Part shown: piece after piece, positions 11,812-47,593 of the stretch | How positions within the stretch are numbered: position 1 is the stretch's first letter | Layout of the letters: each line of letters begins with the position of its first letter | From: Malacoraja senta | Taxonomy: Eukaryota | Direction: 5' to 3' | NCBI GenBank assembly: GCA_038087875.1 | Contig: CM075987.1 | Span: 24,678,001 to 24,742,000 of the forward strand | DNA: 64,000 bases | Translations under genes and position numbers: made by a program | Notes under the pieces: model-generated | Told to the model about the DNA's origin: nothing | Database searches by the model: none | What the model saw: the letters and a program-made list of their open reading frames with translations, nothing else

Positions 11812-12740
11812 ATGTACGTGATCGGTGGGCGGCACGACTCTCGTTTGCAGCGGCCTCTGCAGTCCGTCTGTCTTTTTATTATTTTTGTCTCGTTTCTATG
11901 TAGTTTTTATTATTTTTTTTGTCGGGGTATGTGTGTGTGGGGGGGGGGGGGGTGGGGGGGGGGGTGGGGGGGGGGGGTGGGGGGGGGGAAACTTTGAAAT
12001 CTTTCCCCTGCACGGAGACCCGACCTTTTCTTTGTCGGGTCTCCGTTGTCGTTGGGGCTGGGCAACGTGGAGCGGCCTCCAGCAGGAACGACCTGGGGCT
12101 CCAGTTGCGGAGCTGCGGACTACTCACCGTCGCGGGGCTGGCCGAGTCCGGAGCGGGTGGAGCTGTGGTGGAAACAATCGCTGCTGCTACCCGACCCCCG
12201 GAGATTCGGAGGCTACAACCGCGGGTCTGGCGGACGGCAACACCGGAAGCCCGTGGGTCCCCTGGTGGGAGACCGCTTTTCGGGGCTTCCGCAGCGACGA
12301 CTTCTCCCGCCCGAGTTGCGGGGTTGAAGAGCACCTGGAGCGGGGCTTTACATCGTCGCCCCGCGCGGCTTGGAATGGCCGCCGGACTTTGCGAGCGCGC
12401 GCCGGGGGCTCTAACACCAAGACCCGGTGCGCGACCTTGCATTAACCGGCGTGGCTTTAATGGCCGCGGGATAATCACCATCGCCCGCCGGGGGCTTTGA
12501 CTTTGACTCTGACATCGGGGGGGGGGGGGGGGGGGGGAGTGCAGTGGAGAGATACGTTTTTTTGCCTTCCATCACAGCGCTGTGATGGATGTATGTGTAA
12601 ATTGTGTTGTGTCTCGGGTCTTCTTCGTTTTGTAACGTATGGCTGCAGAAACGACATTTCGTTTGGACCTCAACGGGGTCCAAATGACAAATTTGTCCAA
12701 AAGACAAATAAACAAATTGAAATTGGAATTTGATTGATTT
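11812..12740 (+). mobile_element. GC-rich non-coding retroposon with a Rex1-type 3' tail (unclassified)
   Basis: CpG-rich body, G-runs and hairpins; 3' end ATTTCG-hairpin-TGACAA..ATAAA plus a short tandem tail; interrupts an HE1 SINE head. Confidence 0.7.
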
Positions 12741-13907
12741 TACCACCCTGGGGGATAATGGTTCTGACCATCCCATAATCTATCGGCCCTCTCTGCTGTC
12801 TCTATTCTACTTTGCTCAAATCCTCTGATCTGTCTACTATTTTGGCAGACAAGGTGGGGAAGAAGGAACGGCAGAGAAACTGAAGTTCAGGCCTGGTTCA
12901 GATAGAGTCATGCAGCACGGAAACAGGCCCTTCGGCCCAGCTTGCCCATGCCGACCAACGTGCCCCATCTCACCTGGTCCCATTAGCCGCGGTGGATTGG
13001 TGCACAAGTACTTTCAGGTGCCCTCAGCGGTGCCAGTGGTGAGATGAAAAACACAAACTAAAGAACCAACGAAGACTTATAAATTACAAAAGATACCGTG
13101 CCAGTGGGAAAACTTAGAACCACACAATTTGTCGCCATCATCCTGGTGAATTAATTTCATTTTGGAATTAATAATGAGGTCAAAGGTATCTTGCCAATGT
13201 GTTCTGTACATGGAACAGTGGAGCACAGCAACTAGTCCTTCACCCCACGATGTCTGGGCCGAACATGATGCCAAGCCAGAATTGTGTCTATCAACACGTA
13301 ATACATAGCCCTCCATTCCCTGAATATCCATGTGCCTATCCCAAAGACTCTCAAATGTCACTGTCATTTCTGCTTCAACCACCAGCCTGGCACCACGATC
13401 CAGACACTCATGACCCTTTGAGTAAAAAAAAACTTGTCCCGCACATCTCCTTTGAACTTTGTCTTTCTCACCTCACAGCTCGAGGATTTGAGTTTTATAC
13501 CCGGGGGGGGAAAGGTTCTGCCAGTCCACCCTTTATGTGCATGCCTCTCATATTTGTGTCCACTTCTACCAGGTCACCCTGCTTCTTTTTCATTCAAGGG
13601 AAAACAACCCAAAGTCGGCCCGAGCTCCACCTGTAGAAAGACCCAGGCATCATTCTGGTAAACCTCCTCTGCACCCTTTCCAAAGCCTTAGAGCCTTCAT
13701 AGAATCATTGACAACAAGAGATACCCAATTCAATTTTCCACTGAGCGGCACGGTGGCGCAGCGGTAGAGTTGCTGCCCCACAGCGCCAGGGATTGGGTTC
13801 GATCCTGACTACGGGTGCTTGTCTGTACGGAGTTTGTACGTTCTTCCGTGACCTGCGTGGATTTAAACTTAATAATGGGCAAAAAAACAAGATCAAATAG
13901 AACAAGT

Positions 13908-14136
13908 GTTTAAGAAGGAACTGCAGATGCTGGAAAATCCCAGGTACACAAAAATGCTGGAGAAACTCAGCGGGTGCAGCAGCATCTATGGAGCGAAGGA
14001 AATAGGCAACGTTTCGGGCCGAAACCCTTGGGTTTCGGCCCGAAACGTTGCCTATTTCCTTAAGGGTTATTTCCTTAAGGGGTTGCCTATTCCCTTAAGG
14101 GTTTCGGGCCGAAACGTTGCCTATTTCCTTCGCACC
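13908..14136. mobile_element. Penelope-derived foldback mini-element (subfamily B) with 16-bp TSD and a scrambled centre
   Basis: TSD ATCAAATAGAACAAGT at 13892-13907 and 14137-14152; GGGTTTCGGCCCGAAACGTTGCC units in both orientations. Confidence 0.85.
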
Positions 14137-15204
14137 ATCAAATAGAACAAGTTGACCCACAACTTTAGGCTGTGCACGCCATACGCAAGAAGAAGTGGTA
14201 GTGAGAGGGTGGTGATTCTGTGGAACTCTCTGCCACAGAAGACTGTGGAGGGCAAGTCAGTGGTTACCGTTAAGGCAGAGATAGATAGATTCTTGATAAG
14301 TACGGGTGTCAGGGGTTATGGGGAGAAGGCAGGAGAATGGGGTTTGGAGGGGGGAGATAGATTAGCCATGATTGAATGTCGGGGTAGACTTGATGGGCTG
14401 AATGGCCTAATTCTACTCCTTTTCTTTATGACCTTATGAAACTAACATTCACTAAACATTTTTTTTTAAAGGATATCACCAGGTTTCTTCACATAGCGGC
14501 TGCCATTCTTTGTTCGACAATCCAAGGCCTGTTTTTTCTATCTCCTGTTACTGATGCATTTTGCCTCATAGATCAGATATTTCGGTTGAGAAAAATGTCA
14601 TGCCACGTGTTATTTAGTGTCAGTGATGAGGCAGAGGAGAGGGTTTTTTTTTTGTATTTCCGCTGAGCAAGCCCTGTGAGAGATGTTCTCAGTCACAACA
14701 TTCAGTAAATCTCCGTAATTATTTTTTAAGTTCGTGCTCCATGAAGGCAGGGAGGTTTGGCCCATCTATTGGAAGGCATTCCTGCAGAAGAACCAAGTCG
14801 ACTGGCAGCACTCACAGCCGAGTGATTCCCGTTTGCTGAGATAATGGAAAGACTGCACGAATCGCAGTACCGACCAACCATGAAGAAATACATCTTTAAA
14901 ATCTATCTATGGAAAATAATGGGGGAAAGAATTTAGATATGCATTTCAGAAGACAATACTCTGGGACTGTGTGATGATCATGGCATGGTGTCATTGTTTT
15001 GAACAGTTCATAAGAGTTTTTAAGACTTCCCAGAAATAAAGCTCTTTGCTATTGGAGTTTTATGGGAGCAAAGAAAGAAGGGAATTTCACTGTTACAATG
15101 GTTTTATTGTCCTCAAGAGTATCAGACCGCATTTTAAGGGCATCTAAACACTTCTTCTGAAGTGAGGCCCTGGCTGTTTTGCAGGAATGTGCAGAAAGGC
15201 ACTA

Positions 15205-15205
<1 letters not shown>

Positions 15206-15260
<55 letters not shown>
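15206..15260. repeat. (CA)n microsatellite
   Basis: Pure CA run. Confidence 0.99.
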
Positions 15261-15262
<2 letters not shown>

Positions 15263-15779
15263 ATACACAGAAAGAAATGAGGCCAACTACTATAACATGG
15301 TTTGACCAGGAGCAAAGGAAAATAACGGTTGATCTGTTCAATGGTAATGAGCGGAATCATGGATAGACCACAGCTTAAGGGAAGAAGGGTCTCAACCCAA
15401 AAGATCACCTATTCCTTCTATCCAGAGATGCTGCCTATCCCGCTGAGTAACTCTATCTTCGGTGTAAACCAGCATCTGCAGTTCCTTCGACACATTGCTT
15501 AAGTTCAGTTAAGTTCAGAGATACAGCGCGGAAACAAGGTCTTCGGCCCACCGAGTCCGTGGCGACAGGCAATCCCCGTACACTAGCACTATCCCACGCA
15601 CGAGGGGCAATTCACTATTTTTGTTTCTCAGTAAAATTGTTGATGAGCATTTAAAAAATACCCACGCAAAATACCTAGAGAACAGAGGAGTACTCCCAGT
15701 AACAAGGCCAGCGTTTATCCCCATTCTTGGTAAACTGATAAATTGCATGGGTTTTAATTGGAAATCATGGGTTACTGGG

Positions 15780-18315
15780 CTGCAAAGGCTACTGGGGAGA
15801 CTTTAAACTAGAATGGTTGGGGGGAGGACTCAAATAGAGAATGCTATTAGACAGTGTGTGAGGCAGGAGGCAGAGAAGGAAAACACTCAGACCCAACATG
15901 TAGGGGGAAAGAAGAAAACAATAATAAACAGAGAATAAGAGGTGGTGGGGTTCTTAAATGGGTGAGCAGAGAAACAGAGGGGTGTAAAATGCGGGCGGAA
16001 GCAATAGGTAGCAAGGTGAAAAGTAAAAGTGGCAGGCAGACAAATCCACGGCAAAAATCAAAAAGAGCCACTTTTCAACATAATTGTATAAGGGGTAAGA
16101 GCATTGTAAAAACAAGCCTGAAGGCTTTGTGTCTCAATGCAAGGAGCATTCGTAATAAGGTGGATGAGTTGAACGTGCAGATAGCAATTAATGATTATGA
16201 TATAGTTGGGATCACGGAGACATGGCTCCAGGGTGACCAAGGCTGGGAGCTGAACATCCAGGGATATTCAATATTCAGGAGGGATAGAGAGAAAGGAAAA
16301 GGAGGTGGGGTAGCGTTGCTGGTTAGAGAGGAGATTAACGCAGTGGAAAGGAAGGACATTAGCTTGGAGGATGTGGAATCGGTATGGGTAGAGCTGCGAA
16401 ACACTAAGGGGCAGAAACGCTGGTGGGTGTTGTGTACAGGCCACCTAGCAGTAGTAGTGAAGTTGGGGATGGCATCAAACAGGAAATTAGAAATGCGTGC
16501 AACAAAGGCAAAACAGTTATAATGGGTGACTTCAATCTACATATAGATTGGGTGAATCAAATTGGCAGGGGTGCTGAGGAAGAGGATTTCTTGGAATGTA
16601 TGAGGGATAGTTATCTAAACCAACATGTAGAGGAACCGACGAGAGAGCAGGCTATTCTAGACTGGGTATTGAGTAATGAGGAAGGGTTAGTTAGCAGACT
16701 TGTTGTGCGTGCCCCCTTGGGCAAGAGTGACCATAATATGGTTGAGTTCTTCATTAGGATGGAGAGTGACATTGTTAATTCAGAAACAACGGTTCTGAAC
16801 TTAAAGAAAGGTAACTTTGAGGGTATGAGACGTGAATTGGCCAAGATTGACTGGCAATTAGTTCTAAAAGGGTTGACGGTGGATATGCAATGGAAGGCAT
16901 TTAAAGACTGCGTGGATGAACTACAAAAATTGTTCATCCCAGTTTGGCAAAAGAATAAATCAGGGAAGGTAGTGCATCCGTGGATAACAAGGGAAATCAG
17001 GGATAGTATCAAAGCAAAAGATGATGCGTACAAATTAGCCAGAAAAAGCAGCATACCAGAGGACTGGGAGAAATTCAGAGACCTGCAGAGGATAGGGAGA
17101 ACCAGTGGATGTGTTGTATCTGGACTTTCAGAAGGCTTTCGACAAGGTACCACATAAGAGATTAGGATACAAACTTAAATCACACGGTATTGGGGGTTCA
17201 GTATTGATGTGGATAGAGAACTGGCTGGCAAACAGGAAGCAAAGAGTAGGAGTAAACGGGTCCTTTTCACAATGGCAGGCAGTGACTAGTGGGGTACCGC
17301 AAGGCTCAGTGCTGGGACCCCAGCTATTTACAATTTATATTAATGATCTGGACGAGGGAATTGAAAGCAACATCTCCAAGTTTGCGGATGACACTAAGCT
17401 GGGGGGCAGTGTTAGCTGTGAGGAGGATGCTAGGAGACTGCAAGGTGACTTGGATAGGCTGGGTGAGTGGGCAAATGTTTGGCAGATGCAGTATAATGTG
17501 GATAAATGTGAGGTTATCCACTTTGGTGGCAAAAACGGGAAGGCAGACTATTATCTAAATGGTGGCCGATTAGGAAATGGGGAGGTGCAGCGAGACCTGG
17601 GTGTCATGGTACACCAGTCATTGAAAGTAGGCATGCAGGTGCAGCAGGCAGTGAAGAAAGCGAATGGTATGTTGGCCTTCATAGCAAGAGGATTTGAGTA
17701 TAGGAGCAGGGAGGTTCTACTGCAGTTGTACAGGGTCTTGGTGAGACCACACCTGGAGTATTGCATACAGTTTTGGTCTCCAAATCTGAGGAAGGACATT
17801 ATAGCCATAGAGGGAGTGCAGAGAAGGTTCACCAGACTGATTCCTGGGATGTCAGGACTTTCATATGAAGAAAGACTGGATAGACTTGGCTTATACTCGC
17901 TAGAATTTAGGAGATTGAGAGGGGATCTTATACAAACGTACAAAATTCTTGTGGGGTTGGACAGGCTAGATGCAGGAAGATTGTTCCCGATGTTGGGGAA
18001 GTCCAGGACAAGGGGTCACAGCTTAAGGATAAGGGGGAAATCCTTTAAGACCGAGATGAGGAAAAACTTTTTCACACAGAGAGTGGTGAATCTCTGGAAC
18101 TCTCTGCCACAGAGGGTAGTTGAGGCCAGTTCATTGGCTATATTTAAGAGGGAGTTAGATGTGGCCCTTATGGCTAAAGGGATCAGGGGGTATGGAGAGA
18201 AGGCAGGTACGGGATACTGAGTTGGACGATCAGCCATGATCATATTGAATGGCGGTGCAGGCTCGAAGGGCCGAATGGCCTACTCCTGCACTTATTTTAT
18301 ATGTATCTATGTATC
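15780..18315 (+). mobile_element. CR1-clade LINE (HER1-like): 5'-truncated, frameshifted, internally deleted ORF2 (APE endonuclease + RT)
   Basis: APE motifs LCLNARSIRNK, GITETWL, MGDFN, LGKSDH. RT motifs YLDFQKAFDKVPH, GVPQGSVLGP, KFADDTKL. CR1 C-terminus RGHSL..FFTQRVVNLWNSLP, stop at 18220, then the 3' UTR and (TATC/TATG) tail. One-base frameshift near 16415-16420; deletion junction near 17090. Confidence 0.95.
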
Positions 18316-18790
18316 ATTTGTTCTCCCATTCATATTTGGGAATCACTGAGCCTTGAATCACTCAACTTGTCCAATGTTGTCTGGACTTAGGAAAATCTCT
18401 TTGACAAATTCATCATGATATCATTACACAGATAGTTCCTAAAGAACAAACTTAAGAATATTCCAACGGGCCTTGCAGTTGATAAGATGCTTTTGAAGTA
18501 CAGTTGCTTTTATAATATCAAATAACACAGCAGCCTTTTGCAAGCCAGAGCCTTAATAAATAACTGGAAAATCATTTATAATATACTGCTTGAGAGATTC
18601 ACTTTAATAAAATCAATTTTAATTATGACCGTTCTATTGTGTTTTTAAAAATAAATGGTTTAAGTAAATCAGTAATATCATAAATACTGTAATCATTGTG
18701 TGATATGACAGTGAATTCCTCCTACATCTTTGGAAGGAAACTGACTCTCCAGCCTGAGAATAAACAGATGAACAAAATATTATGAGCAAA

Positions 18791-19098
18791 GGGCAGCACA
18801 GTGGCGCAGCGGTAGAGTTGCTTCCTTGCAGTGCCAGGGACCCAGGTTCGATCCTGAATGACGGGTGCTGTCTGTACGGTGTTCGCACGTTCTCCCCGTG
18901 ACCTTGTGGGTTTTCGCCAGGTGCTCCGGTTTCCTCCCACATGCCAGACGTGCAGGTTTGCAGGTTAATTGGCTTCGGTTAAAAAAAAAGTCAACTGTCC
19001 CTGGTGCGTGCAGGATAGTGCTAGCGTGCGGGAATCACTTCGCCTCAATGGGCCGAAGGGCCTGTTTCCGCGCTGTATCTCCAAACTAAACCAAACTA
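18791..19098 (+). mobile_element. HE1-type SINE
   Basis: Full-length consensus match. Confidence 0.9.
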
Positions 19099-20233
19099 AA
19101 AAAAAATAATATTCACCTTCAAAACCTTTCAAAATCAACGGCAACTTCACACCACTTACACATCCCTGAGTGATTGCACATAGCTTATCATTGCGCTAAC
19201 CCAATCCACATTTATACTGCCCGAAAATTAAAGATTCATTGGAGATAACGTCAAATATAATGTGCTTGCTGTAAAGTAATCCGTGCCCAAACACTGGTCG
19301 GTCTTTCGAACACTGACATCTTCTGACACTGAAGGACTCCGACAGGGAATCACATGTGATTGTGTTGCCAAGGTGTTGGTTCCAATAGGTTTTGGATAAG
19401 ACTTGGCGGCGGCTGCAACCAGAGCAGCTATTTCTCCCGTCCCGCGGGTTTCGGTGGTAGATTTCTGGCTGGGATTCAAGAAGCTGGTGAAAAAGATACA
19501 AAGTTTGTTTCTTGATGTCCAGAGAGTGCTCTGCTGGCAAGGAGGACAACTCCTGGGATAGTCCGGGATCCAATTTCTGTGAAAGCAATATATTCTGGAG
19601 TTATTCCACCTGGAACACATCCAGATGTGTCAGGAAACCCAGCTGTCTGAAAGCAGAGACTGTTTGTATGGAGCCGCCCTCAGCCCCTTCCTGAAAGTGG
19701 ATTCTCACCAGCTAGTCATCTAACCATGGTTAGATAGATGTGCAATCCATTAAGCTGTTTACTGCAGTTACTGGATAGTGCAATGCGAAAATATATATAT
19801 ATATATATATTTTTGTATTTCTGGCAAGGAGCCTCTCTTGTTCATTTTTGCTGTCTAAGTGTTTCAGAGTGTTATGACCATCTCAAGTTTATTTTTCAGG
19901 TAAGGAAGGTGACCTGAAAATCCCTGCACAATCAAACGGCAAAATTATCTCAATTTTATTCTCGTCTCGGAGTTATCCTTGTCCCAGAAGAAAAATAAAA
20001 GGATTTTGCTCCTGAATAGTTCAAATGCTCAACTCCTGCCAGTAGGATGATAGGTAAAATATTGCCAGATGATTCAGAAATGAACTTCAATGTTTTTTTT
20101 ACTTCACAATTATTTTTTCTGCAAAGCTCTCTTCCCTCTGCTGTCCTGAAATACATGCTCAAAATCGTTGCTGTCTGAATTCCCGGGGGATGAAGATATT
20201 AGACCCTATGAAAGAGGTAAGTAAGCAAAAGAA

Positions 20234-20530: not shown

Positions 20531-21544
20531 AGTATGAAGGGTAGTTCCTTGACTGGGAGGAGTAGTATCAAAATGGGACCATCAGCAATTTAATTTTTTA
20601 CAATCAAAGCAGAGGGCAGAGACCATACAGTAGTGAACTGGATTATCTACCTTATCCATCTGCAGTAGAATTGTGTAGGATTGAACTGCAGATGCTGGTT
20701 TGCATTCAAGATAGACACAAAATGCTGGAGTTACTCAGCAGGTCGGGCAACATCTCTGGAGAAAAGTAATAGTGACGTTTCGAGTCGAAAGAAGTGTGTT
20801 TCAATCCGAAACTTCACCTTTTCATTTTCCCCAGAGATGCTGCCTGACCCGCTGAGTTACTCAGCATTTTGTGTCTTTCCGAGTAGAATTGTGTTGTTAT
20901 GACTCATCGCTAGAATAATATATACATTGGGACGTTGCACGTTGTGATTTTGCCCTCTGAGAGACCCAAGAATAGTCCTCCATCAAGTAATCATAGTTAT
21001 CCATGGCAAACATTCCTGAAACACGATATGACTAGACTGCGATATTCGATGGTAAGACTTAATCTGTTACAGTCTCCAAAGGAATTTGCACCAAGCCTTT
21101 ACAAAAGCAAAGGCTGAACCTTAAAGCTAAAAAATCAAGGTTAGACAAGCAGTAAATCACTCAGCACTTCCGTGGACACACGTGGCAATGGAACTATGTG
21201 AAATCTAACTCGGGCTCATAGCCAGACCCATTGGAAGACAGTAAAAAACTCGTCTGGGTAAAAAGTACCCTTTACAATAGAAGATAGGCGCAAAATGCTG
21301 GAGTAACTCAGCGGGTCGGGCAGCATCTCTAGAGAGAGGGAAGAGGTGATGTTTCGTGCCGAGACCCTTCTTCAGGCTGAGAGTCAGGGAAGAGGGGAGA
21401 GACACTTGGACAAATACATTGATAGGAAACGTTTAGGGGTCAAACGCAAGCATCTGGGGCGATCTTAGATGGGGCACCTTGGTCAGCATGTTCCACTTGG
21501 GCCGAAGGGTCTGTTTCCATGCTGTACGTCTCTACGACTATGAG

Positions 21545-21702
21545 TCTGTATTCATGTGTGTATATATTTATATAATGATATATGGACACACTGATCTGTT
21601 CTGTAGTCAATGCCTACTATATTCTGTTGTGCTGAAGCAAAGCAAGAATTTCATTGTCCTATCAGGGACACATGACAATAAACTCACTTGAACTTGAACT
21701 TG
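21545..21702 (+). mobile_element. Rex1-type 3' tail (second family)
   Basis: TATTCTGTTGTGCTG..GCAAG..AAGAATTTCATTGTCC..GGGACACATGACAATAAA-(CTTGAA)n; also at 26715-26870(-), 28958-29090(-) and 55760-55875. Confidence 0.65.
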
Positions 21703-31022: not shown

Positions 31023-31400
31023 GGGCGCCGACAGATGGCGCAATGGGCTAAGTGTTCGGCTGGCAACCGGAAGGTAGCCGGTTCGAATCCCGCTTGGAGT
31101 GCATACTGTCGTTGTGTCCTTGGGCAAGACACTTCACCCACCTTTGCCTGCGTGTGAATGTGTGTGAATGTGTGTGAATGTGTGTGAATGTGTGTGAGTG
31201 ATTGGTGGTGGTCGGAGGGGCCGTAGGCGCAGATTAGCAGCCACGCTTCCGTCAGTCTGCCCCAGGGCAGCTGTGGCTACAGAAGTAGCTCACCACCACC
31301 GAGAGTGACTGAGGTGTGAATGAATAATGCGATGTAAAGTGCCTTGAGTATTAGAAAGGCGCTATATAAATCCCATCCATTATTATTATTATTATTATTA
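31023..31400 (+). mobile_element. tRNA-derived CORE-type SINE with an L2-type tail (AFC-like), nested in a HER1 tail
   Basis: A box TGGCGCAATGG (~31036); B box GGTTCGAATCCC (~31080); CORE-like GTGTCCTTGGGCAAGACACTTCACCC; tail TGTAAAGTGCCTTGAG...AAAGGCGCTATATAAAT(TTA)n. Confidence 0.88.
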
Positions 31401-39135: not shown

Positions 39136-39499
39136 TCTATAGAGGCGTTTTTCAATCAGCCTAAATGAAGGAAGTGTAGAATTTGCTAGGGTCAAGTACA
39201 ACAAACCAATGACTCACATAAAACCCATGGATCAACATTGGATGGTTCTTCTATGTATTCAGGCCAAATGTAATGGACACCATGAACAAAGGCAGAATCG
39301 GGAGTTAAACTGGCCCTACATAATATTTGACCAATACATTTGAGATATTGCCTCTTCTTGTATCATGATTACATTAGCTCCAGTTTCTGAAATACTTTGG
39401 GTGCGTAGAAATAACAGCTTATACAACAAGCAAAATTAAAGAAGGTTCGCGACCCAAAATGTCACCTATCCATGTTCTCCAAAGATGCTTGCCTAATTG

Positions 39500-39790
39500 T
39501 TTAGTTTAGTTTAGAGATACAGCGTGGAATCAGGCCCTTCAGCCCACACCGACCAGCGATCCCCGCACACTAACACTGTCCTGCAGTTGACACAGTTTAT
39601 CACGGACAGTTAACCTACAAACCTGTGCATTTTTTTGGAGTGTGGGAGGAAACCAGAGCACCGGGGAAAGACCCACACGGTCACGGGGAGAAAGTACAAA
39701 CTCCGTACAGACAGCACCCGCAGTCAGTATGGAACCTGGGCCACTGGCGCTGTAAGGCAGCAACTCTACTGCTGCGGCACTGTGTTGCCC
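39500..39790 (-). mobile_element. HE1-type SINE
   Basis: Consensus match on the minus strand. Confidence 0.88.
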
Positions 39791-40096
39791 CAGTGAGCCA
39801 ATAGGTTACTCCAGCACTTTGTGCCCTCATGTGTAAGCTGGCATCTGCCGTTTCTTGACTCCGTTAAGGAAAATTATTTCAAAGATCCATCACATTTATA
39901 CACGCACGGAGAGCAATGTAATTCAGAATCCACTGGTTGGTGAGATAATATAGGCACTTTGAGGATTGGGGACCATATTTCAACAAGACCCGTCTCACCG
40001 ATCTAGATACTTGGCTTTGAACGACAGAATGAGAAACAAATCAACCTTTTCCACAGATTTGAGATGAAATTAGAAGGATAAAAGTGGACAAAATGA

Positions 40097-40355
40097 GTAG
40101 GAAGGAACTGCAGATGCTGGTTTGCGCTGAAGAGAGACACAAAATGCTGGAGCAGCTCAGCGGGACAGGCAGCATCTCTGGAGAGAAGGAATGGGTGACG
40201 TTTCGGGTTGAGACCCTTCTTCAGACTTCAGAGTGAAGAAGGGTCTCGACCCGAAACGCCACCCATTCCTTCTCTCCAGAGATGCTGCCTATTCCTTCTC
40301 TCCAGAGATGCTGCCTGTCCCGCTGAGTTACTCCAGCATTTTGAGTCTATCTTCA
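40097..40355. mobile_element. Penelope-derived foldback mini-element (subfamily A) with back-to-back hammerhead-like cores
   Basis: Minus strand 40224-40195 reads CTGAAGA-A-GGGT-CTCA-ACCC-GAAAC-GTC; a degenerate plus-strand copy starts at ~40233. Confidence 0.8.
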
Positions 40356-41466
40356 GGATAAAGGAGACATTTCTGCAATTTCTACTGAAAAAGTCCATCA
40401 TATTATGACCGCAAGCTAAGGATTAAACCAAGACCACGCTCTCACAAATTGACCTTGGAAGTACTTCAATATTTTCTCTTTCAGATGATTTATTCACAGG
40501 CAATTTGGAAGATAAATGGTGATTGATTATTTGAGAATGCAAAGTTTATTTTCTATTAGTCAGCTTTCAGAACCCTGAATGTTTTCATTGATGCAACAGG
40601 GATAAAGTGCGATTGAGAATTTCGGCAAAAAGTGGCACATGTCATTTAAACATGAGCTTGCTCACGTTGGATCTAAGAATTACAAATCGCTTTCTTAAAA
40701 CAGTGTTTTTGGGGTTTAGAGATACAGTCCCTTTGGCCCATCAAGTCCATGCCATCCACTGATAACCCGCCCTATAACATATGACAGTAGTCCTATGTTT
40801 TCCCACTATCTCGTCCACTCCACACAGAGGCCAAGCAACCTATAAATTCTTTGGGGGTGTGGGAGGAAAGCAGAGGAAACCGGTGAAGGGTGGTGAATCT
40901 GAGGAATTCTTTGCCACAGAAGGCTATGGAGGCCAAGTCAGTGGATATTTTTTTTAAGGCAGAGATAGATAGATTCTTGATCAGTACAGGTGTCAGAAGT
41001 TATGGGGAGAAGGCAGGAGAATGGGGTTAAGGGGGAGAGAGATAGATCAGCCATGATTGATGGTGGAGTAGGCTTGATGGGCCGAATGGCTTAATTCTAC
41101 TCCTGTCACTTATGACCCAGGGAGAATTTGCAAACCCCACAAAGACAGCACCTGAGGTCAGGATTGAACCTAGATCTCTGGTGCTGTGAGGCAGCAGCTC
41201 TATCAACCGTGCCATTGTGTATGTGGGAAGATATTTATACGTCTATGTACATGTACACAAGTTATGAACACCTAGAGCACGGATAAAGTGTCAAAATAGT
41301 ATGATGCATTCCATCTAATGGGATTACATTCTCTGTGGTTAATTGGCATGGTCTCACGGAATGTTATGATGGGTTTGAATAGATGAATAGCTTTTTCGAT
41401 ATTAGTTTCAATAATGGAACGGTCTCTGACGTGTCGCTCTAGAATAAATGTTCAAGATACTAAGTC

Positions 41467-41772
41467 GGCGGCACGGTGGTGCAGCGGTAGAGTTGCTGCC
41501 TTACAGCACCAGAGACACAGGTTCGATCCTGACTGCGGGTGCTGACTGTATGGAGTTTGTACATTCTCCCCGTGACCACGTGGGTTTTGTCCGGGTGCTC
41601 TGGCTTCCACCCACATTCCAAAGACGCGCAGGTTTGTAGGTTAATTGGCTTCAGTAAAATTGTAAATTGTCCCTAGTGTGTGTGTAGGATAATGTTAGTG
41701 TGCGGGGATCGCTGGTCGGCATGGACTCGGTGGGCCGAAGGCCTTGCTTCTGCGCTGTATCTCTAAACTAAA
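41467..41772 (+). mobile_element. HE1-type SINE
   Basis: Full-length consensus match. Confidence 0.9.
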
Positions 41773-42212
41773 CGAAATAGCCAGACGCATAGAAAGTACA
41801 TTTTTAACAGCTTCGTAATAGCTAGTTGTAAAACTTTATTGACTGCCTTTGTTATTTGTCTTTTTATATTCTTTGACAAGTGGTCAAATTAATAAATGAA
41901 AGGAAATGTACGACAAGCAGTGGAATTTCATTTTACCACCAAGCAGATGTTTCAAAGTTGCGTGAATTAAACTAGACTCAGCAGATTATTTCCCTGCTTG
42001 GAAGATAATGCTTACTACAAGTTAAACCGCAACTTGAAAATTCTGTACAACTTTGGTCAGTGTAAGGAAAAAATATAGTTCATAAAAATTAAAATCTTTT
42101 GACCTTCTCTGTTGTTAATTGGCATGATCTCAATGAAGATAATAATAGGTTTGAGTAAGTAGATGACTAGCTTTTTCTGTACTAGTTTCAATAAATTCGA
42201 AATTTGTTTCAG

Positions 42213-42510
42213 GACGGCACGGTGGCGCAGCAGTAGAGTTGCTGTCTTACAGCGCTTGCAGCACCGGGACCCGGGTTCGATCCTGACTACGGGGTGCTGT
42301 CTGTACGGAGTTTGTACGTTCTCCCTGTGACCTGCGTGGGTTTTCTCCGAGATCTTCGGTTTCCTCCCGCACTCCAAAGACGTAGGGTTTGTAGGGAACT
42401 TGACTGAGCATAAATGCGAATTGTGCCGAGTGTGTGTTAATGTGCGGGGATCGCTGGTCGGCGCGGACTCAGTGGGCCGATGGGCCTGTTGCCGCGCTGT
42501 ATCTCTAAAC
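42213..42510 (+). mobile_element. HE1-type SINE
   Basis: Full-length consensus match. Confidence 0.9.
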
Positions 42511-43362
42511 GCTCTGATGTGTCACTCTAAAATATGTCTTTCAAGATACTAATGTTAATATAAACTACTAACTCGAACAAATGGCTCAACAGGAGAGAGC
42601 TATCAAGTTGTGAAACTGACAGGATTGATTTACAATGCATCATAAAAACAGCACAATGATGACAGGGAATACATTTGGTAAATGCTTTTCCAGAGAATAG
42701 ACTTACATTCTGATAGTTTCTGACTGTATTGCTTTGACTCTGTTAAAGTGGGTAGTAACACGGATAATAAATACTGAAAGTTTTAAGGCATAGTGTCATA
42801 GAGTCGTACAGTCTGACAGCATTGAAACCCAACTTGCCCCACACTGGCCAACATGTCCCATCTGCACCAGTCCCACCTACCTGCATTTGGCCCTTATCCC
42901 TCTAAACCTGTCCTATCCATGTACCTGTCTAAATGTTTCTTAAAGGTTGAGATAGCACCTGCCACAACTATCTCCATACACCCGCCATCCTTTGCAGGAA
43001 AAAGTTACCCCTCAGGTTCCTATTAAATTAAAACTATTTTGAGAGGAAATTTAGATTGCTTTTGGAAGCAGAAAGCGAGATGATTTGGCTTGTATCAATA
43101 ATTTCTACTGTACTAGATCTTACTCTGAAATGAACAGTACTTTCCCATTTTGAGGAAGTGAGCATGATGCCTTGTCTCAATTCTAAAATGGGCCTCTGGC
43201 AATGAATGTTCAGTGGGACCCCTAGTCAGGATCGAACCCGGGTCTCTGGTGCTGTGAGGCAGCAACTCTACCGCTGTGCCACTGTGCCTCCCCTAACCTT
43301 GCTCTGGGCACATATATGGTCTTGCGTAGGAAGGAACTGCAGATGCTGGTTTACACCGAAGA

Positions 43363-43748
43363 TTTTGATTTGATTTGATTTGATTTGATTCAATTTATTG
43401 TCATTGCACATTTCAGTGCAACAAAATGGTTTAGCCTTGCAGTCATAACATAGAATAAATAACAAAAACACACACTCAACACAGTTTAGCATCCACCACA
43501 GTGAGTCCACCAGGCACCTCCTCACTGTGATGGAAGGCAAAAAGTCCCAAAGTCCATGTCTCTTCCCTCCTTGCTCTCCCTCTGCGCTGAGGCGATCCAG
43601 GCCTCCGATGTTGTGACCCCGCCGGGTGATGGTAAGTAAGTCCCGCGGCTGAATCCGAACGGGCCGGTTCAAACTCCGCGGCCCGGGGCGGTCGAAGCTG
43701 CCGAAGCTGCCGCCCTCCAGTCCAGCGGACGCAGCTGTTGTTGCGGGA
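43363..43748 (-). mobile_element. 5'-truncated GC-rich retroposon (Rex1-type tail) nested in a Penelope mini-element
   Basis: GCCTTCCATCACAGTGAG hairpin; ends TTGCAC-TGAAAT-GTGCAA-TGACAATAAA-(AATCA)n. Confidence 0.75.
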
Positions 43749-44594
43749 ACACAAAATGCTGGAGTAACTCAGCGTTGCAGGCAGCATCTCTGGAGAAAGG
43801 GAATAGGTGACGTTTAGGGTCGAACGCTTTCTTCAGTGAAGTAGGGTCTCGACCCAAAATGTCACCTATTCCTTTTCTCCAGACATGCCACCTGACCCGC
43901 TGAGTTACACCAGCATTTGGTGTTATTTTTCATATCTGGTCCTGTCCTCTTGCAAGAAGATTTAAAATGAAAATATACAACAAATTAATTTCAAAAATGG
44001 CCACGTTGTGGTTGCAAAGTCTCACCAGTGATGTTCTCTGTGGAATCCCAGTTGAGTTTAGTTTATTGTCACGCGTACCGAGGTACAGTGAAACACTTTT
44101 GTTGCGTGCTAACCAGTCAGCGGAAAGACAATACATGATTACAATCGAGCCGTTCACACTGTGCAGATACATGATAAGGGAATAACGTTTAATGCAAGAT
44201 AAAGCTGGCAAAGACGGATCAAAGATAGTCCGAGGGTCACCAATGAGGTCGATAGTAGTTCAGGACTGCTCTCTAGTTGTGGTAGGATTATGGTAGAATG
44301 TAGTGATCATAGAGGTTTATGCAAATATCTCAAGTTTTGTTTTAAGCGTAGGATGAGGTATTCAGACACGTGGAACGAGTTTTGTTCTCTGTGTTGTGCA
44401 GATGAAACGCGATTACGAGAGTGGAATGTATTTGCGACCACATCCAGGTCCAAGCGATAGCTCTGGGAATTGGACTGGCCTCATTTGGTTGTAAGACATG
44501 CTTGCACTGATGATATGATCTCTTGCAGAGTGTTGCACGGGATATTATGTCATGTTGTCCTGGGCACTGAGACAACAGCACAGCTTTAATAGTC

Positions 44595-45385
44595 TTTGGA
44601 AGGGAACGGGCTAATTGCAGACTGTCAGCATGGCTTTGTGTGGGGCTGGTAGTGTCTTACAAACCTGATTTAATTAATTTTGAGAAGGTGGTAAAGGCGA
44701 TTGATGGGGGGGGGGGGTAGGCTGTGCATGTTGTCTACATCGACTTCAGTAAGGCAATTTACAAGGTTAAATGGTTAAAGGTTTAGAAGGATGAGAGGGA
44801 TTCTTATAGAAACATATAACATTCTTAAGGGATTGGACAGGCTAGATGCAGGAAAAATGTTGGGGGAGCCCAGAACCAGGGGCACCAGTTTAAGAATATG
44901 GGGTAGGCCATTTGGGACTGAGATGAGAAAAAACATTTTCAGCCAGAGAGTTGTGAATCTGTGGAATTCTCTGCCACAGAAGGCAGTGGAGGCCAATTCA
45001 TTGGATGTATGCAAGAGAGAGTTAGTTCCCTTGGGGCTAATGGAATCAAAGGATATGGGGAGAAAGCAGGAACGGGGTACTGATTCTGGATAATCAGCCG
45101 TGATCATATTGAACGGCGGTGCTGGCTCGAAGGGCCGAATGGCCTCTACTCCTGCACCTATTGTCTATGTTTCTACCCTTCTATGTCACTCAAGGTAGGC
45201 TGATCCAGAAGATTAAGGAACGGGGTACTTGGTGACCGGGTAGGCTGGATTCAGAACTAGCTTAACTTTGGATGACCTATAGAACAGGGTAGCAGGGTGG
45301 AAGGGTATTAGTTTGGCTGGATGTCTCTGACCAGTGGTGTTCCACAGGGATCTGTACTGGGACCTCTGTTGTTTGTGATGAATAT
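44595..45385 (+). mobile_element. Old degenerate CR1 RT remnant interrupted by a younger CR1 3' end (~44777-45177)
   Basis: Left part reads CQHGFV...CLTNLI...VVYIDFSKA; right part reads GRLIQKIK...TSGVPQGSVLGPLLFV; a younger tail with 3' UTR lies between them. Confidence 0.8.
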
Positions 45386-45671
45386 GCAGGGTATGGAGGG
45401 ATTACGGATCACATGCATGGGATTTTGGGATAGGCACATGGATATGCAAGGATAGGGATTGTGTACAGTCAGATAAGAGTATGTTGGCATCACAGATAGA
45501 CACAAATTGCTGGAGTAACTCAGCGGGTCAGAGTCTGAAGAAGGGTCCCAACACAAAATGTCATCGGTCCTGTTTCTCCGGAGATGGAGCCTGACCCGCT
45601 GAGTCCCTCCAACACTTTGTGTCTATCCTTCGGTATAAACCAACATCTGCAGTTCTTTGTTTCTGCACTAG

Positions 45672-45985
45672 GTTTTAGTTTTAGTTTTAGAGATACAGCA
45701 CGGAAACAGGCCCTTCGGCCCACCGAGACCTCGCCGAAGTGCAATCCCCACACACTAACACTATCCGACACGCACCAGGGACAATTTACAATTATACCAA
45801 GCCAATTAAGCTACAAACCTGCACGTCTTTGGAGTGTGGGAGGAAACCGGAGATCCCGGGGAAAACCCACACGGGTCACGGGGAGAACGCACAAACTCCG
45901 TACAAACAGCGCCCGTAGTCAGACTCGAACCAGGGTCTCTGGTGGTGTGCGGCAGAATCTCTACTGCTGCGCCACCGGTCCGCCC
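45672..45985 (-). mobile_element. HE1-type SINE
   Basis: Full-length consensus match on the minus strand. Confidence 0.9.
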
Positions 45986-46748
45986 ATGTTCAGCAGAGAT
46001 ATAATGGGCTGAAGGGCCTGTTCCTGTTCATACTCTATGGTCTTAACATCTAGTAGACTAAGTTTCTGAAACGTATCTTGGCCTCCGCTATGCAGAGCAA
46101 CCATGCACTGATTCCACATTCACATTTCTGTCTGACGATCACAACTTCAACCCAAACATAGTCAGAGTGATACAGCGTGGAAACAGGCCCTTCGGCCCAA
46201 CTTGCCCACACCGTCCAATATGTCCCATCGACACTAGTCCCACCTGCCTGCGTTTGCCACATATCCTTCCAAACCTGGCCTATCCATGTACCTGTCCAAC
46301 TGTTTCTGAAACATTGGGATAGTCCCTGCCTGAACTACCTCCCCTGGCAGCCCGTTCCATACACCCACCACCCTTTGTGTGAAAAAGTTCCCCGCTCAGA
46401 TTCCTATTAAATCTTTTCCCCTTCACCTTAAACACAAGTTCACAGGTTATAGGAGTAGAATCAGGCCATTCGGCCCATCGAGTCCACTCTTCCATTCATT
46501 CATGGCTGATCTCTGCCTCCTAATCCTATTTTGCTGCCTTCTCCCCATAACCCTTGATACCCGTTCTAGTCAAGAGTTTGTCTATCTTTGCTTTAAAAAT
46601 ATCCACTGACTTGGCTTCCACAGCTCTCTGTGGCAATGAGTTCCACAGATTAACTAACCTCTGACTAAAGAAGTTCCTCCTCACCTCCTTTTTAAAAGAG
46701 CGCCTTTTACTTCGGAGGCTGTGACCTGTGGTCCGAGACTCTTCCACT

Positions 46749-47593
46749 AATAATAATAATAATAATAATAAGTTTATTTATATAGCACATTTTCCAATTG
46801 ATTTAAATCAAAAGCCAAAGTGCTTTACAGTTACTAACCAAACAAATAATAAAAAGAGATAGAAAAAATGACAACACACTATAAGAGATTTTACACAAAC
46901 ACGAACATCCCCCCACAGTAGAATCTACACTCTCCACTGTGAGGGAAGGCACTAAAATGTCCAGTCCTCCTCCTCCTCCTAGTCCACCCGAGGTCGGGGC
47001 CAGTCTGAGGCCACTGCAGCCAGTCGCCGCAATGGCAGCCCGATGTTGTTTGCCCACCCGCATCGGGTGGAAAAGTCCTCAGCAGCTTGGAAATGTCTGG
47101 AGCGGCCGCTCCTTCCCCGGAGACTGCGACGCTCGCGGACTTCAGGCCGCGCCGGTTGGAGCTTCGACTCCGCGGTGTTCCTGATCCAGCGCCGCCCGCC
47201 CGTGGCGGGATGCCCTCAAACCGCAGACCGCAGACCATGGCTGCTCGATGTTGGTGGTCGGCGGTCACAGCACTCCGGAGCGGCGACCCGACAAGGCATC
47301 GCCCGCTCCCCGTTGGTGTCCCAGTGCTGTGCTGCCGAAGCTGTGGTCCCCGGCAGGAAACGCCGCTCCAGCCCGATGGAAGGCCGCATGGGGAGACCGG
47401 AGACGCGATTCGGAGGAAAACCGCATCTCCGACCAGGTAGGACTGGGGTTAAAACAGTTCCCCCCCCCACATAGAAAGAATAGACTCCAAATAATAAAAA
47501 AATAAAAAATATTCAAACAATAAAAGAGTTAGACGACGGACTGCAGGCAGGCTGCCATACAAACGGCGCCCACTCCTGCACATCCGCCATCTT
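46749..47593 (-). mobile_element. GC-rich non-coding retroposon with an L2-type 3' tail, related to 11812-12740
   Basis: 5' end AAGATGGCGG; shared head CTGCAGTCCGTC; 3' end TGTAAAGCACTTTG...AAATGTGCTATATAATAAAC(TTA)n; interrupts a CR1 tail. Confidence 0.75.

What the first reader, a model, noticed from the sequence alone, without database searches (positions are those of the whole stretch)
11812..47593. Structured ~0.9-kb GC-rich non-coding retroposon with covarying hairpins and interchangeable LINE tails
SEEN: 11812-12740(+) and 47593-46749(-) have dissimilar GC-rich bodies but the same order of parts: head GTGGGCG..GCAGC..CTGCAGTCCGTC, T-rich tract, G-run+AAC, hairpin 1, CpG-rich body, hairpin 2, then a tail. 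Hairpin 1 is a 13-bp stem in both (ACGGAGACCCGAC/GTCGGGTCTCCGT at 12012-12046; CGGAGATGCGGTT/AATCGCGTCTCCG at 47431-47398). Hairpin 2 follows GCC(T)TCC and occurs at 12568-12589, 2311-2351, 43534-43492 and 46946-46909 with different loops and stem changes that keep pairing. Three copies end in a Rex1-like hairpin+TGACAA(T/A)..AAA, with three different stem sequences (TTCAGACC/GGTCTGAA, TTTGGACCTC/GGGGTCCAAA, TTGCAC/GTGCAA). The 47-kb copy instead ends in an L2-like tail with (TTA)n and starts AAGATGGCGG, a YY1-like motif. I see no tRNA A/B boxes and no credible ORF. INFERENCE: a superfamily of LINE-5'UTR-headed non-autonomous elements whose RNA structure is under selection and which has switched partner LINE.
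Basis: partly seen in the sequence, partly recalled or inferred. Interest (0 to 1): 0.72.

Follow-up and report, generated by a model that had tools for sequence, protein, structure and literature searches.

The report
Structured non-coding LINE-dependent retroposon superfamily
An abundant group of about 0.9-kb non-coding jumping elements in a large vertebrate genome keeps the same RNA hairpins and promoter-like starts while exchanging the tail that lets it borrow the copying machinery of different LINE elements.

Summary
Window 11821-12725(+) and 47593-46749(-) are full-length copies of two young families (A, B). 2300-2477(+) and 43748-43368(-) are 5'-truncated copies of two more (C, D). All four belong to one superfamily. 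Its hairpin-2 motif occurs 32,288 times in the 1.94-Gb genome, against 1 for a reversed control. I found at least 11 families.

Shared order of parts: promoter-like 5' end (YY1-like CAAGATGGCGG, or ETS-like CCGGAAGTGG), conserved CTGCAGTCCGTC, T-rich tract, G-run, hairpin 1, CpG-rich non-coding body, hairpin 2, LINE-type tail, AATAAA, microsatellite.

- Hairpins 1 and 2 keep pairing through compensatory changes.
- No ORF is conserved, and there is no tRNA, Rfam or Pfam match.
- T-runs near the 5' end argue against pol III.
- Two tail types are exchanged within one body lineage (families B/Bo versus I).

Not settled: the autonomous partner LINEs, the names "Rex1" and "L2", whether the head is a LINE 5'UTR, and transcription (no RNA data).

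Verdict: a LINE-dependent, probably pol II-driven, structured non-coding retroposon superfamily. It is a new variant of a known kind and may already sit unnamed in repeat libraries.

The parts
11821..12725 (+). Full-length copy of family A: unit 11821-12712 plus a terminal short repeat
   Evidence: Of 39 other long genomic matches, 33 start at query positions 9-20 (window 11820-11831). Most end at 12712, followed by (TTGTA)n or (TTGAA)n.
11821..11869 (+). Family A head: ATCGGTGGGCGG... with the conserved GCAGCGG..CTGCAGTCCGTC (core at 11857-11868)
   Evidence: The core pattern YCTGCAGTCCRTYKKY has 5,643 genomic hits against 12 for the control.
11872..11989 (+). T-rich tract with four runs of T>=5, then (TG)n and a long interrupted G-run
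12012..12046 (+). Hairpin 1 of A: 13-bp stem, 9-nt loop
   Evidence: z -6.5; covariation.
12047..12540 (+). CpG-rich non-coding body (GC 0.67, CpG o/e 1.05), ending in a second G-run at 12516-12538
   Evidence: No Pfam match. Frames are not conserved between A and E.
12568..12589 (+). Hairpin 2 of A, a shortened form with a 9-bp stem
12640..12712 (+). T1 tail of A: GGCTGCAG.., stem-loop within 12656-12690, then ..GACAAATAAA
   Evidence: z -5.8.
46749..47593 (-). Full-length copy of family B
   Evidence: Thirty-nine other matches are 96-99% identical, and 38 of them start at query positions 1-6.
47530..47593 (-). Family B head: AAGATGGCGG (YY1-like) at the 5' end, with the conserved CCTGCAGTCCGTC at 47547-47535
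   Evidence: The base before AAGATGG is C in 67 of 100 listed genomic copies, giving CAAGATGGCGG. That is 11 of 12 positions of the YY1 consensus printed in PMC13017510.
47394..47434 (-).
   Evidence: (z -5.6).
46909..46946 (-). Hairpin 2 of B (CCCTCACAGTGG.. / ..CTACTGTGGGGG)
46749..46832 (-). T2 tail of B: CTGTAAAGCAC...GTGCTATATAAATAAAC stem-loop (46832-46772), then (TTA)n (46771-46749)
   Evidence: z -3.9. The same tail type occurs on the tRNA-derived SINE at window 31030-31400 and on family Bo.
2300..2477 (+). 5'-truncated copy of family C: hairpin 2 at 2311-2351, T1 stem-loop within 2418-2449, (TCTA)n at 2457-2477. It is inserted in another retroposon's tail, with GCAAG repeated on both sides.
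43368..43748 (-). 5'-truncated copy of family D (positions 478-858 of the roughly 860-bp unit): hairpin 2 at 43534-43492, T1 stem-loop within 43427-43398, (AAATC)n tail

Best explanation
These are copies of a superfamily of non-autonomous, non-coding non-LTR retroposons of about 0.85-0.9 kb.

Shown:
- There are many dispersed families with sharply defined but slightly ragged 5' ends.
- 5' truncation is frequent, and target-site duplications are absent or very short.
- The 3' end is a stem-loop followed by AATAAA and a family-specific microsatellite. This is the anatomy of 'stringent' LINE tails, which the LINE's ORF2 protein recognises.

Inferred mechanism:
1. The element is transcribed by RNA polymerase II. 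Initiation lies at or a few bases upstream of a motif that works from just downstream of a start site: YY1-like CAAGATGGCGG in family B, ETS-like CCGGAAGTGG in families C and D.
2. The promoter motif is therefore carried in the RNA and inherited by every full-length copy.
3. The RNA is probably cleaved and polyadenylated after AATAAA, within or behind the microsatellite.
4. The ORF2 protein of a co-resident LINE binds the 3' stem-loop and reverse-transcribes the RNA at a nick, often incompletely.
5. Hairpins 1 and 2 belong to the element itself, not to the borrowed tail, because they persist when the tail is exchanged. They are kept by selection on the RNA of the active (master) copies. Their role is unknown; RNP assembly, stability or export are candidates.
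6. New lineages arise by exchange of the tail (T1 versus T2) and by remodelling of the first 20-30 bases.
For: Families and ends:
- Searches give the four families. One search gives the defined ends with unrelated flanks.
- Mean pairwise divergence among 19 copies of each family is 1.3% (B), 2.4% (D) and 3.4% (A).

Abundance and 5' truncation:
- The hairpin-2 motif has 32,288 hits against 1 for the control.
- The head core has 5,643 hits against 12.
- Exact YY1-type heads number 333 against 0.
- All shortened copies of family C end inside the unit. None continues into a different upstream sequence.
- TSDs of 6 bp or more occur in 1-3 of 19 copies per family, against 0-2 in controls.

Non-coding:
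- No Pfam match in 7 stop-free frames of the elements.
- Similarity between A and E jumps between frames, and E's longest frame is 115 aa.
- No Rfam family reaches threshold.

Not pol III:
- No tRNA-like head.
- Every family has several runs of T>=4 within the first ~110 nt. By recall, such runs terminate pol III.

Pol II-like features:
- The body has GC 0.66-0.72 and CpG o/e 0.81-1.05. AATAAA lies close before the terminal repeat in A, B, C and D.
- In human promoters YY1 acts just downstream of start sites and is strand-specific. YY1 and ETS motifs can themselves position initiation (passages read in PMC13017510, and bioRxiv 10.1101/2024.05.28.596138).

Structure:
- Hairpin 2, 11 families: 95.8% of 144 cells paired; 4 pairs and 7 cells changed on both sides; 0 of 500 shuffles reach the covariation score; slid controls pair at 35-60%.
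- Hairpin 1, 6 families: 78 of 81 cells paired; 8 columns with double changes; 0 of 2000 shuffles reach the paired count and 1 of 2000 the number of double-change columns.
- Own arms fold at -19.0 kcal/mol on average, swapped arms at -10.7.

Tail:
- It is a stem-loop of about 9-13 bp with family-specific distal stems.
- The same tail type sits on a LINE 3' end that follows an ORF2 C-terminus.
- Stringent LINE ORF2 binds its cognate 3' stem-loop (abstract of PMC4176376).

Tail exchange.
Against: - No transcript evidence. No RNA run is on record for this sequence, so the polymerase, the start site and polyadenylation are all inferred.
- The promoter-motif reading rests on human data and on short motif matches.
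- Family A's 5' end (ATCGGTGGGCGG) carries neither motif cleanly.
- The partner LINEs were not found, so dependence on a particular LINE is inferred from tail anatomy alone.
- The hairpin-1 alignment was made by hand to fit the structure and holds only about four independent lineages.
- Hairpin 2's stem is a near-palindrome in DNA, so a DNA-level role cannot be excluded.
- A putative head hairpin got no support: consensus energy -4.07 kcal/mol and 1 compensated pair.
- The head-tail complementarity seen in C and D is only partly kept in A and E and is absent in B.
Confidence: 0.6

Rival explanations
1. Internal-deletion derivatives of an autonomous LINE, in the manner of RIME from ingi. On this view the head, hairpin 1 and the GC-rich body are the LINE's own 5'UTR, and hairpin 2 plus the tail are its 3'UTR. 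The conserved structures are then LINE UTR structures, and the short elements are simply its deleted offspring. This concerns origin and is compatible with most of the mechanism above.
For:
- Per passages read in PMC13343379, Rex1 elements have no ORF1 and rays have the highest Rex1 coverage. A long GC-rich 5'UTR directly followed by ORF2 is therefore conceivable.
- Only about 17% as many head cores as hairpin-2 motifs exist, so long parents could hide among rare full-length copies.
- A 5' YY1 site is known in human L1 (recall).
Against: - No copy in hand continues from the head or body into coding sequence. Every shortened copy of family C ends inside the 0.9-kb unit.
- The four LINE copies I fetched, chosen for long open frames (L081-L084), show no similarity to head or tail.
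- The same head, body and hairpin 2 occur with two unrelated tails. That needs recombination in any case.
- Several body lineages have diverged to about 50% identity while all stay about 0.9 kb long.
Confidence: 0.3
2. An unusual pol III SINE whose promoter I failed to recognise, for example an upstream type-3 promoter or a degenerate internal one.
For: It shares with SINEs a LINE-type tail, the lack of coding capacity, and tail ('module') exchange, which is described for SINEs (passages read in PMC5499810).
Against: - No tRNA-like head, and no 5S, 7SL or tRNA match in Rfam.
- The unit is 845-905 nt long.
- Every family has several T>=4 runs within the first ~110 nt. These would stop pol III long before the tail (recall).
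- An upstream promoter would not be copied with the element.
Confidence: 0.03
3. The 'covarying hairpins' are not selected RNA structures. They would be palindromic DNA sites such as protein-binding sites, or by-products of template switching or gene conversion between arms. The compensatory pattern would then reflect shared ancestry among a few lineages.
For: - Hairpin 2 in family A is a perfect 20-base DNA palindrome.
- Only about 4 (hairpin 1) to 6 (hairpin 2) independent lineages underlie the counts.
- The tool's own caveat applies: related sequences can beat all shuffles without any structure.
Against: - G-U (G-T) pairs are common in the stems and occur as intermediates. At pair 10-44 the types are UA 5, UG 4, CG 2; at pair 16-38 they are UA 7, UG 2, CG 1. 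That fits RNA pairing, not DNA palindromes.
- The loops differ freely in length (4-15 nt) and sequence while the stems persist.
- Three separate stems behave alike.
Confidence: 0.1

Closest known systems
SINE/LINE pairs with a shared 'stringent' 3' tail. Examples: CmiSINE and SacSINE1-CM with L2-2_CM in the elephant shark (passages read in PMC5499810); the zebrafish ZfL2 tails (abstract of PMC4176376); UnaSINE1/UnaL2 and HE1/HER1 (recalled).
   Same: A non-coding passenger with a LINE-type 3' stem-loop plus a terminal short repeat. Tail ('module') exchange allows a change of partner. Families show frequent 5' truncation.
   Different: No pol III (tRNA, 5S or 7SL) head. The unit is three to four times longer than a typical SINE. 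T-runs near the 5' end are incompatible with pol III. The 5' ends look like pol II promoter motifs. Two internal hairpins are conserved across families.
Non-autonomous LINE derivatives that carry the parent's 5' promoter: RIME/ingi and NARTc/L1Tc of trypanosomes with the 'Pr77' 5' hallmark, and HAL1 in mammals (all recalled, not checked here).
   Same: A short non-coding element with a conserved 5' terminal module thought to drive its own pol II transcription, and a 3' end recognised by the LINE machinery.
   Different: No parent LINE with this head has been found here. The 5' motif differs between families (YY1-like, ETS-like, neither). The tail has been exchanged between two tail types.
Human L1 5'UTR with its YY1 site near the 5' end (recalled). 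On the YY1 motif itself and its action just downstream of start sites, I read passages in PMC13017510 and bioRxiv 10.1101/2024.05.28.596138.
   Same: A sense-oriented (C)AAGATGGCGG at the extreme 5' end of a CpG-rich retroposon. This suits a promoter that travels with the transcript.
   Different: Here the motif is at positions 1-11 rather than about +13. The element encodes nothing. Function is untested.
Pol II-type non-coding retroposons: SVA in hominids and Sadhu (about 0.9 kb) in Arabidopsis (recalled).
   Same: A kilobase-scale, non-coding element mobilised in trans by a LINE and not transcribed by pol III.
   Different: Those end in poly(A) and use a relaxed L1-type partner. These end in a specific stem-loop plus microsatellite, which marks a stringent partner, and they carry conserved hairpins.

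Membership tests
SINE in the strict sense (pol III-transcribed) | Head derived from tRNA, 5S or 7SL RNA with an internal pol III promoter | tested here: not met
   ARAGORN finds one tRNA-like gene in the window (1725-1792), and none in the four copies. No Rfam match reaches threshold.
SINE in the strict sense (pol III-transcribed) | Transcript free of internal pol III terminators (T>=4), and length usually under about 600 nt | tested here: not met
   Every family has several T>=4 runs (3 in Bo, 5 in the other five) in the first ~110 nt. The four full-length units (A-D) are 845-905 nt. The terminator rule is recalled.
Non-autonomous LINE-dependent retroposon (stringent-tail passenger) | No coding capacity of its own | tested here: met
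   No Pfam match. Frames are not conserved between families A and E.
Non-autonomous LINE-dependent retroposon (stringent-tail passenger) | 3' stem-loop plus terminal short tandem repeat | tested here: met
   The repeats are (TTGTA)n or (TTGAA)n in A, (TCTA)n in C, (AAATC)n in D and (TTA)n in B.
Non-autonomous LINE-dependent retroposon (stringent-tail passenger) | Tail shared with an autonomous LINE of the same genome | tested here: inconclusive
   The T1 tail architecture (TTTCRYT, stem-loop, TGACAATAAA, repeat) also ends a very abundant LINE 3' end that follows an ORF2 C-terminus. That end has 100,509 first-look candidates, with open frames up to 306 aa in the 150 scored. Its stem differs from those of A, C and D, and no intact partner was retrieved.
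Non-autonomous LINE-dependent retroposon (stringent-tail passenger) | Dispersed copies with 5' truncation and short or absent target-site duplications | tested here: met
   No Repbase or Dfam library and no named Rex1 sequence is on hand. [quoted passage not shown] That fits but is not specific. An RT fragment with ..DYSPAFNTI.. lies beside one T1 tail in L033. By recall this motif variant is Rex1-like, but the fragment is not linked to the tail.
   T2 is shared with a tRNA-derived SINE (window 31030-31400) and with family Bo. No LINE with this tail is among the sequences held.
Internal-deletion derivative of a LINE (5'UTR + 3'UTR) | An autonomous element with the same 5' head | not tested
The four LINE copies fetched show no similarity.
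YY1-type TSS-proximal promoter (as in the L1 5'UTR) | Sense-oriented YY1 core at or just downstream of the RNA start | tested here: met
   Met at sequence level only. CAAGATGGCGG is at the 5' end of family B. C precedes AAGATGG in 14 of 18 sampled copies and in 67 of 100 listed genomic copies. This matches 11 of 12 positions of the consensus printed in PMC13017510. Binding and function are not testable here.

The most novel reading that the evidence does not exclude
A vertebrate superfamily of self-promoting, structured non-coding RNAs that behave as pol II 'super-SINEs'. Each full-length copy carries its own start-site-proximal promoter module, and these modules are interchangeable (YY1-like, ETS-like, GC-box-like). 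Two conserved RNA hairpins act as the element's own functional core. The 3' tail is a plug-in that has been swapped between two LINE lineages. With more than 30,000 CpG-rich copies, the superfamily would also be a genome-wide source of new CpG-island-like promoters in cartilaginous fishes.
Probability: 0.3. Interest if true: 0.7.

Novelty: new variant of a known kind. Interest (0 to 1): 0.5.

Why it matters
**A missing intermediate.** If the mechanism holds, these elements sit between SINEs (pol III head, LINE tail) and LINE 5'UTR-driven elements. They would be a non-coding passenger with a portable pol II promoter and its own conserved RNA structures.

**A natural experiment.** Three things could be read from the family tree:
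- which RNA features a stringent LINE machinery needs (the tail);
- which features the passenger needs for itself (hairpins 1 and 2);
- how promoter modules are exchanged at a retroposon's 5' end.

**Practical relevance for annotation.**
- The hairpin-2 motif alone marks more than 32,000 copies. That is of the order of 1% of the genome if the copies average several hundred bases, which is my estimate and not a measurement.
- The elements are CpG-rich and carry promoter motifs, so they can confound CpG-island, promoter and 'Rex1' coverage annotation in rays and sharks.

Tried and rejected
**Partner LINE**
- A Pfam RVT_1 search of the genome gave a top 150 that look like one two-ORF LINE type, judged from the one copy I fetched. 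That copy (L081: ORF1 341 aa, ORF2 1271 aa) shows no real similarity to heads or tails, only weak short matches in low-complexity runs.
- A Pfam Exo_endo_phos_2 search gave several groups. I fetched the 3' parts of three of them (L082-L084).
  - L082 ends in (GAA)n.
  - L083 was cut too far upstream.
  - L084 is broken.
  - None matches at E<=0.01.
- The LINE in the window (15851-18300) has a different tail.

**Expression**
- No RNA holder is listed for family B.
- The four runs laid are Logan contigs of about 100 nt. They show no starts, ends or informative joints.
- The only use I make of them: a second, coded organism (B) holds near-identical pieces of the head and of the hairpin-2/tail region.

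**Head hairpin**
- RNAalifold on six heads gave -4.07 kcal/mol with 1 compensated pair. Not supported.

**Head-tail panhandle**
- GCCTGCAGTC in the head is complementary to GACTGCAGGC in the tail of C and D, and the two pair in the whole-element folds.
- It is only partly kept in A and E and absent in B. It remains unresolved.

**Target-site duplications**
- None above control.

**Coding**
- No Pfam match, and frames are not conserved.

**Known RNA families**
- None. The best sub-threshold match is SNORA27 at 27.8 bits against a gathering score of 64, on the opposite strand of the tail.

**Protein look-up**
- The LINE C-terminal peptide was searched against longer proteins. Two candidates came up and none scored.

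**Earlier findings of this scan**
- Nothing by place, sequence or words.

**Papers**
- Full-text searches for the tail strings found only unrelated papers: one search returned 14 and one search returned 2.
- Topic searches listed no paper describing such elements.
- These searches do not cover Repbase or Dfam entries or subscription journals.
- I did not open any supplementary files.

**Linking hairpin 2 to the tail**
I answered the question with a DNA search instead.

Full report
**What is there**

The window is part of contig C11 of a 1.94-Gb assembly. The surrounding repeats look like those of cartilaginous fishes, which is my recollection only.

- Family A (window 11821-12725, +) has 3544 first-look candidates in the genome. 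Forty were scored. The other long matches are 92-97% identical, and 33 of 39 begin at query positions 9-20.
- Family B (47593-46749, -) has 3815 candidates. Thirty-nine other scored matches are 96-99% identical, and 38 of them start at positions 1-6.
- Flanks on both sides are unrelated between copies, so the ends are true element ends.

The two short pieces are 5'-truncated copies of two further families.
- Family D: the full unit is about 860 bp (for example L042:1024-1885), with 2981 candidates.
- Family C: the unit is about 900 bp (for example L075:789-1690), with 1488 candidates. It holds an internal repeat of about 40 bp that varies in number.

**One superfamily**

A and B share no BLAST-detectable similarity in their bodies. 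Pairwise identity in a global alignment is 47-61% between the A, B and C/D lineages and 71% between C and D. The order of parts is nevertheless the same:
1. a 5' terminal motif;
2. the conserved GCAGC..CTGCAGTCCGTC;
3. a T-rich tract;
4. a G-run;
5. hairpin 1;
6. a CpG-rich body;
7. GCCTTCC plus hairpin 2;
8. about 40 conserved bases;
9. a tail.

A profile of the hairpin-2-to-tail region found more members in the roughly 350 kb I held:
- E, which is A-like (L058);
- Bo, an older B-like family (L040:199-1195);
- F, G, H, I and J.

Genome-wide counts:

| Pattern | Hits | Reversed control |
|---|---|---|
| Hairpin-2 5' arm GCCTTCCMYCACAGYG | 32,288 | 1 |
| Head core YCTGCAGTCCRTYKKY | 5,643 | 12 |
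| Exact B-type head, with Y two bases upstream | 333 | 0 |

Among the first 100 hairpin-2 places listed, I counted by hand 55 CCATCACAGTG, 17 CCCTC, 11 CCCCC, 11 CCACC and 6 CCATCACAGCG variants.

Most copies are therefore 5'-truncated, as expected for LINE-mediated reverse transcription. All shortened copies of family C that I inspected end inside the unit. Target-site duplications of 6 bp or more are no commoner than in controls.

**Non-coding, and not a pol III SINE**

- Seven stop-free frames of the elements have no Pfam match.
- Between A and its 77%-identical relative E, the protein-level similarity jumps between frames, and E's longest frame is 115 aa.
- No Rfam family matches, and ARAGORN finds no tRNA-like head.
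- Every family has several runs of T>=4 within the first ~110 nt. By established knowledge (recalled) these terminate pol III.
- The body has GC 0.66-0.72 and CpG o/e 0.81-1.05. AATAAA lies shortly before the terminal repeat in A, B, C and D.

**The 5' ends**

- C and D start (T/A)CCGGAAGTGGCGGCGC.
- B starts AAGATGGCGG. The preceding base is C in 14 of 18 sampled copies and in 67 of 100 listed genomic copies (T 19, A 8, G 6; hand count). The usual end is therefore CAAGATGGCGG.
- A paper I read in passages prints CAAGATGGCGGC as the YY1 consensus. It reports that YY1 acts most strongly just downstream of start sites (PMC13017510).
- A preprint read in passages gives CCGGAAGTG as the ETS consensus. 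It places YY1 within about 30 bp downstream of initiation in a fixed orientation, and it finds that ETS and YY1 motif instances can themselves position initiation (10.1101/2024.05.28.596138).
- A retroposon can inherit only promoter elements that lie inside its RNA, so these motifs at positions 1-12 are what a self-propagating pol II unit would need.

This is inference. There is no RNA evidence, and family A's end (ATCGGTGGGCGG) fits neither motif well.

**The hairpins**

All fold far better than shuffles, with z from -3.2 to -6.5.

Hairpin 2, 11 families, MAFFT alignment A1:
- 95.8% of 144 cells are standard pairs.
- Four pairs and 7 cells changed on both sides, for example A-U to C-G at pair 9-45.
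- Pair 10-44 runs U-A (5), U-G (4) and C-G (2).
- 0 of 500 shuffles reach the covariation score.
- With partners slid by 1-3 columns, only 35-60% of cells pair.

Hairpin 1, 6 families, about 4 lineages, hand-made structural alignment:
- 78 of 81 cells pair.
- Eight columns show double changes.
- 0 of 2000 shuffles reach the paired count, and 1 of 2000 reaches the number of double-change columns.
- Hairpins built from a family's own arms average -19.0 kcal/mol, against -10.7 for arms swapped between families.

Caveats: the lineages are few, one alignment was fitted to the structure, and shuffles ignore relatedness. A head hairpin is not supported.

**The tails**

Tail T1 (families A, C, D, F, G, H; I has a variant):
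- Its sequence runs ..CTGCAG.., TTTCRYT, then a stem-loop of about 9-13 bp whose 3' arm runs into TGACAATAAA, then a family-specific microsatellite.
- The distal stems differ between families while pairing is kept. In the arm-swap test the C, A, H and D tails fold at -10 to -17.5 kcal/mol with their own arms, and most swaps give 0 to -6. Five of the 12 representatives in that script are not T1 tails.
- The same tail type ends other elements in the window (21600-21700, 55790-55880, 2478-2545).
- It also ends a LINE 3' end that follows an ORF2 C-terminus (..IIKDESHPGHSLFSPLPSGKRYRSVKTHTSRFRDSFFPAVIRQLN). That end is seen at window 44291-44055 and in L033, L069 and L073.
- The peptide has 100,509 first-look candidates. 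Open frames are 64-306 aa in the 150 scored, so this lineage is old.

Tail T2 (families B, Bo):
- It is a different stem-loop, CTGTAAAG..stem..ATATAAATAAA, followed by (TTA)n.
- It is shared with a tRNA-derived SINE at window 31030-31400.

Tail exchange:
- Family I has the B/Bo type of body and hairpin 2 but a T1-like tail.
- All 39 other genomic matches cover body, hairpin 2 and tail at 92-95% identity, from 1394 candidates.
- The exchange is therefore a family-level event and lies downstream of hairpin 2.
- Stringent LINE ORF2 proteins bind their cognate 3' stem-loop (abstract of PMC4176376). Tail exchange is an accepted way for SINEs to change partner (passages in PMC5499810).

**What I could not settle**

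- The autonomous partners. [quoted passage not shown] PMC13343379 (passages) says rays have the highest Rex1 coverage and that Rex1 lacks an ORF1. Both are compatible and neither is decisive.
- Whether the head comes from a LINE 5'UTR.
- Transcription.
- Whether repeat libraries already list these families.

**Verdict**

The most likely reading is a LINE-dependent, probably pol II-driven, structured non-coding retroposon superfamily with exchangeable tails and 5' promoter modules. It is a new variant of a known kind, of moderate interest.

Noticed in passing
window 31030-31400 (+): A tRNA-derived SINE whose tail (GTAAAGTGCC..GGCGCTATATAAAT..(ATT)n) is of the same type as the tail of family B. 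Two unrelated passengers therefore use tail type T2.
   Followed up: partly
window 2120-2299 + 2478-2545; 43760-43900 + 43300-43367; 21290-21700; 55790-55880: A very common SINE-like element (..CTCCAGAGATGCTGCC..GCTGAGTTACTCCAGCATTT.. core) ends in a T1-type tail (ATTTCATTGTCC..GGACATATGACAATAAA). Both truncated copies C and D in the window are inserted inside copies of it.
   Followed up: partly
window 44291-44055 (-); L033, L069, L073: A LINE 3' end with an ORF2 C-terminus and a T1-type tail is extremely abundant: 100,509 first-look candidates for a 57-aa peptide. Two copies (L069, L073) start at the same base about 460 nt from the end. This may mark a short non-autonomous form.
   Followed up: partly
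L042:1059-1068 with 1813-1822; L075:824-833 with 1603-1612: The head sequence GCCTGCAGTC is exactly complementary to the tail sequence GACTGCAGGC in families C and D, and the two pair in whole-element MFE folds. In A the complement is 9 bp, with one C-G to U-A change and one G-U. In E it is 8 bp. In B it is absent. The core CTGCAG is a palindrome and also occurs in other T1 tails.
   Followed up: partly
L075:1100-1400 and other family C loci: Family C carries an internal tandem repeat of about 40 bp (GGAGCGGAGACTGCGGGACCCGGAGCTGGGGCAGCGGCCT-like) whose number differs between copies.
   Followed up: no
window 11931-11989 and 12516-12538; the equivalent places in other families: Long G-runs, up to about 60 nt and interrupted by single T, follow the T-rich tract. 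A second G-run precedes hairpin 2 in family A. Their length varies between copies. They may form G-quadruplexes; this was not analysed.
   Followed up: no
window 15851-18300 (+): A degraded LINE with Exo_endo_phos, Exo_endo_phos_2 and RVT_1 matches. Its tail is different (..GGCCGAATGGCCTACTCCTGC..), so it is not the partner.
   Followed up: yes
genome-wide tables; L081, L082: Many LINE copies have long open frames. One is a two-ORF type with a 1271-aa ORF2 (L081). Another has a 1277-aa frame and ends in (GAA)n (L082). This suggests recent LINE activity of several kinds.
   Followed up: partly
loci pairs L004/L013, L032/L037, L048/L049, L065/L067: Within each pair the flanks around the element are identical. 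These are duplicated genomic segments or assembly duplicates, not independent insertions.
   Followed up: no
window 46898-47132 and 47512-47598 as laid: Contigs of a second, coded organism (B) hold near-identical pieces of family B's hairpin-2 region and head. In run X3, two loose ends lie at the element's 5' boundary, 47593. The family or a close relative therefore exists in another organism.
   Followed up: partly
hairpin 2 in all families, e.g. window 43525-43519 and 43504-43498: The stem contains CACAGTG and its complement CACTGTG, the same heptamer as the V(D)J recombination signal. No correctly placed nonamer was seen. It is probably a coincidence.
   Followed up: no
window (position not looked up): The window contains 200 N, which is an assembly gap.
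   Followed up: no
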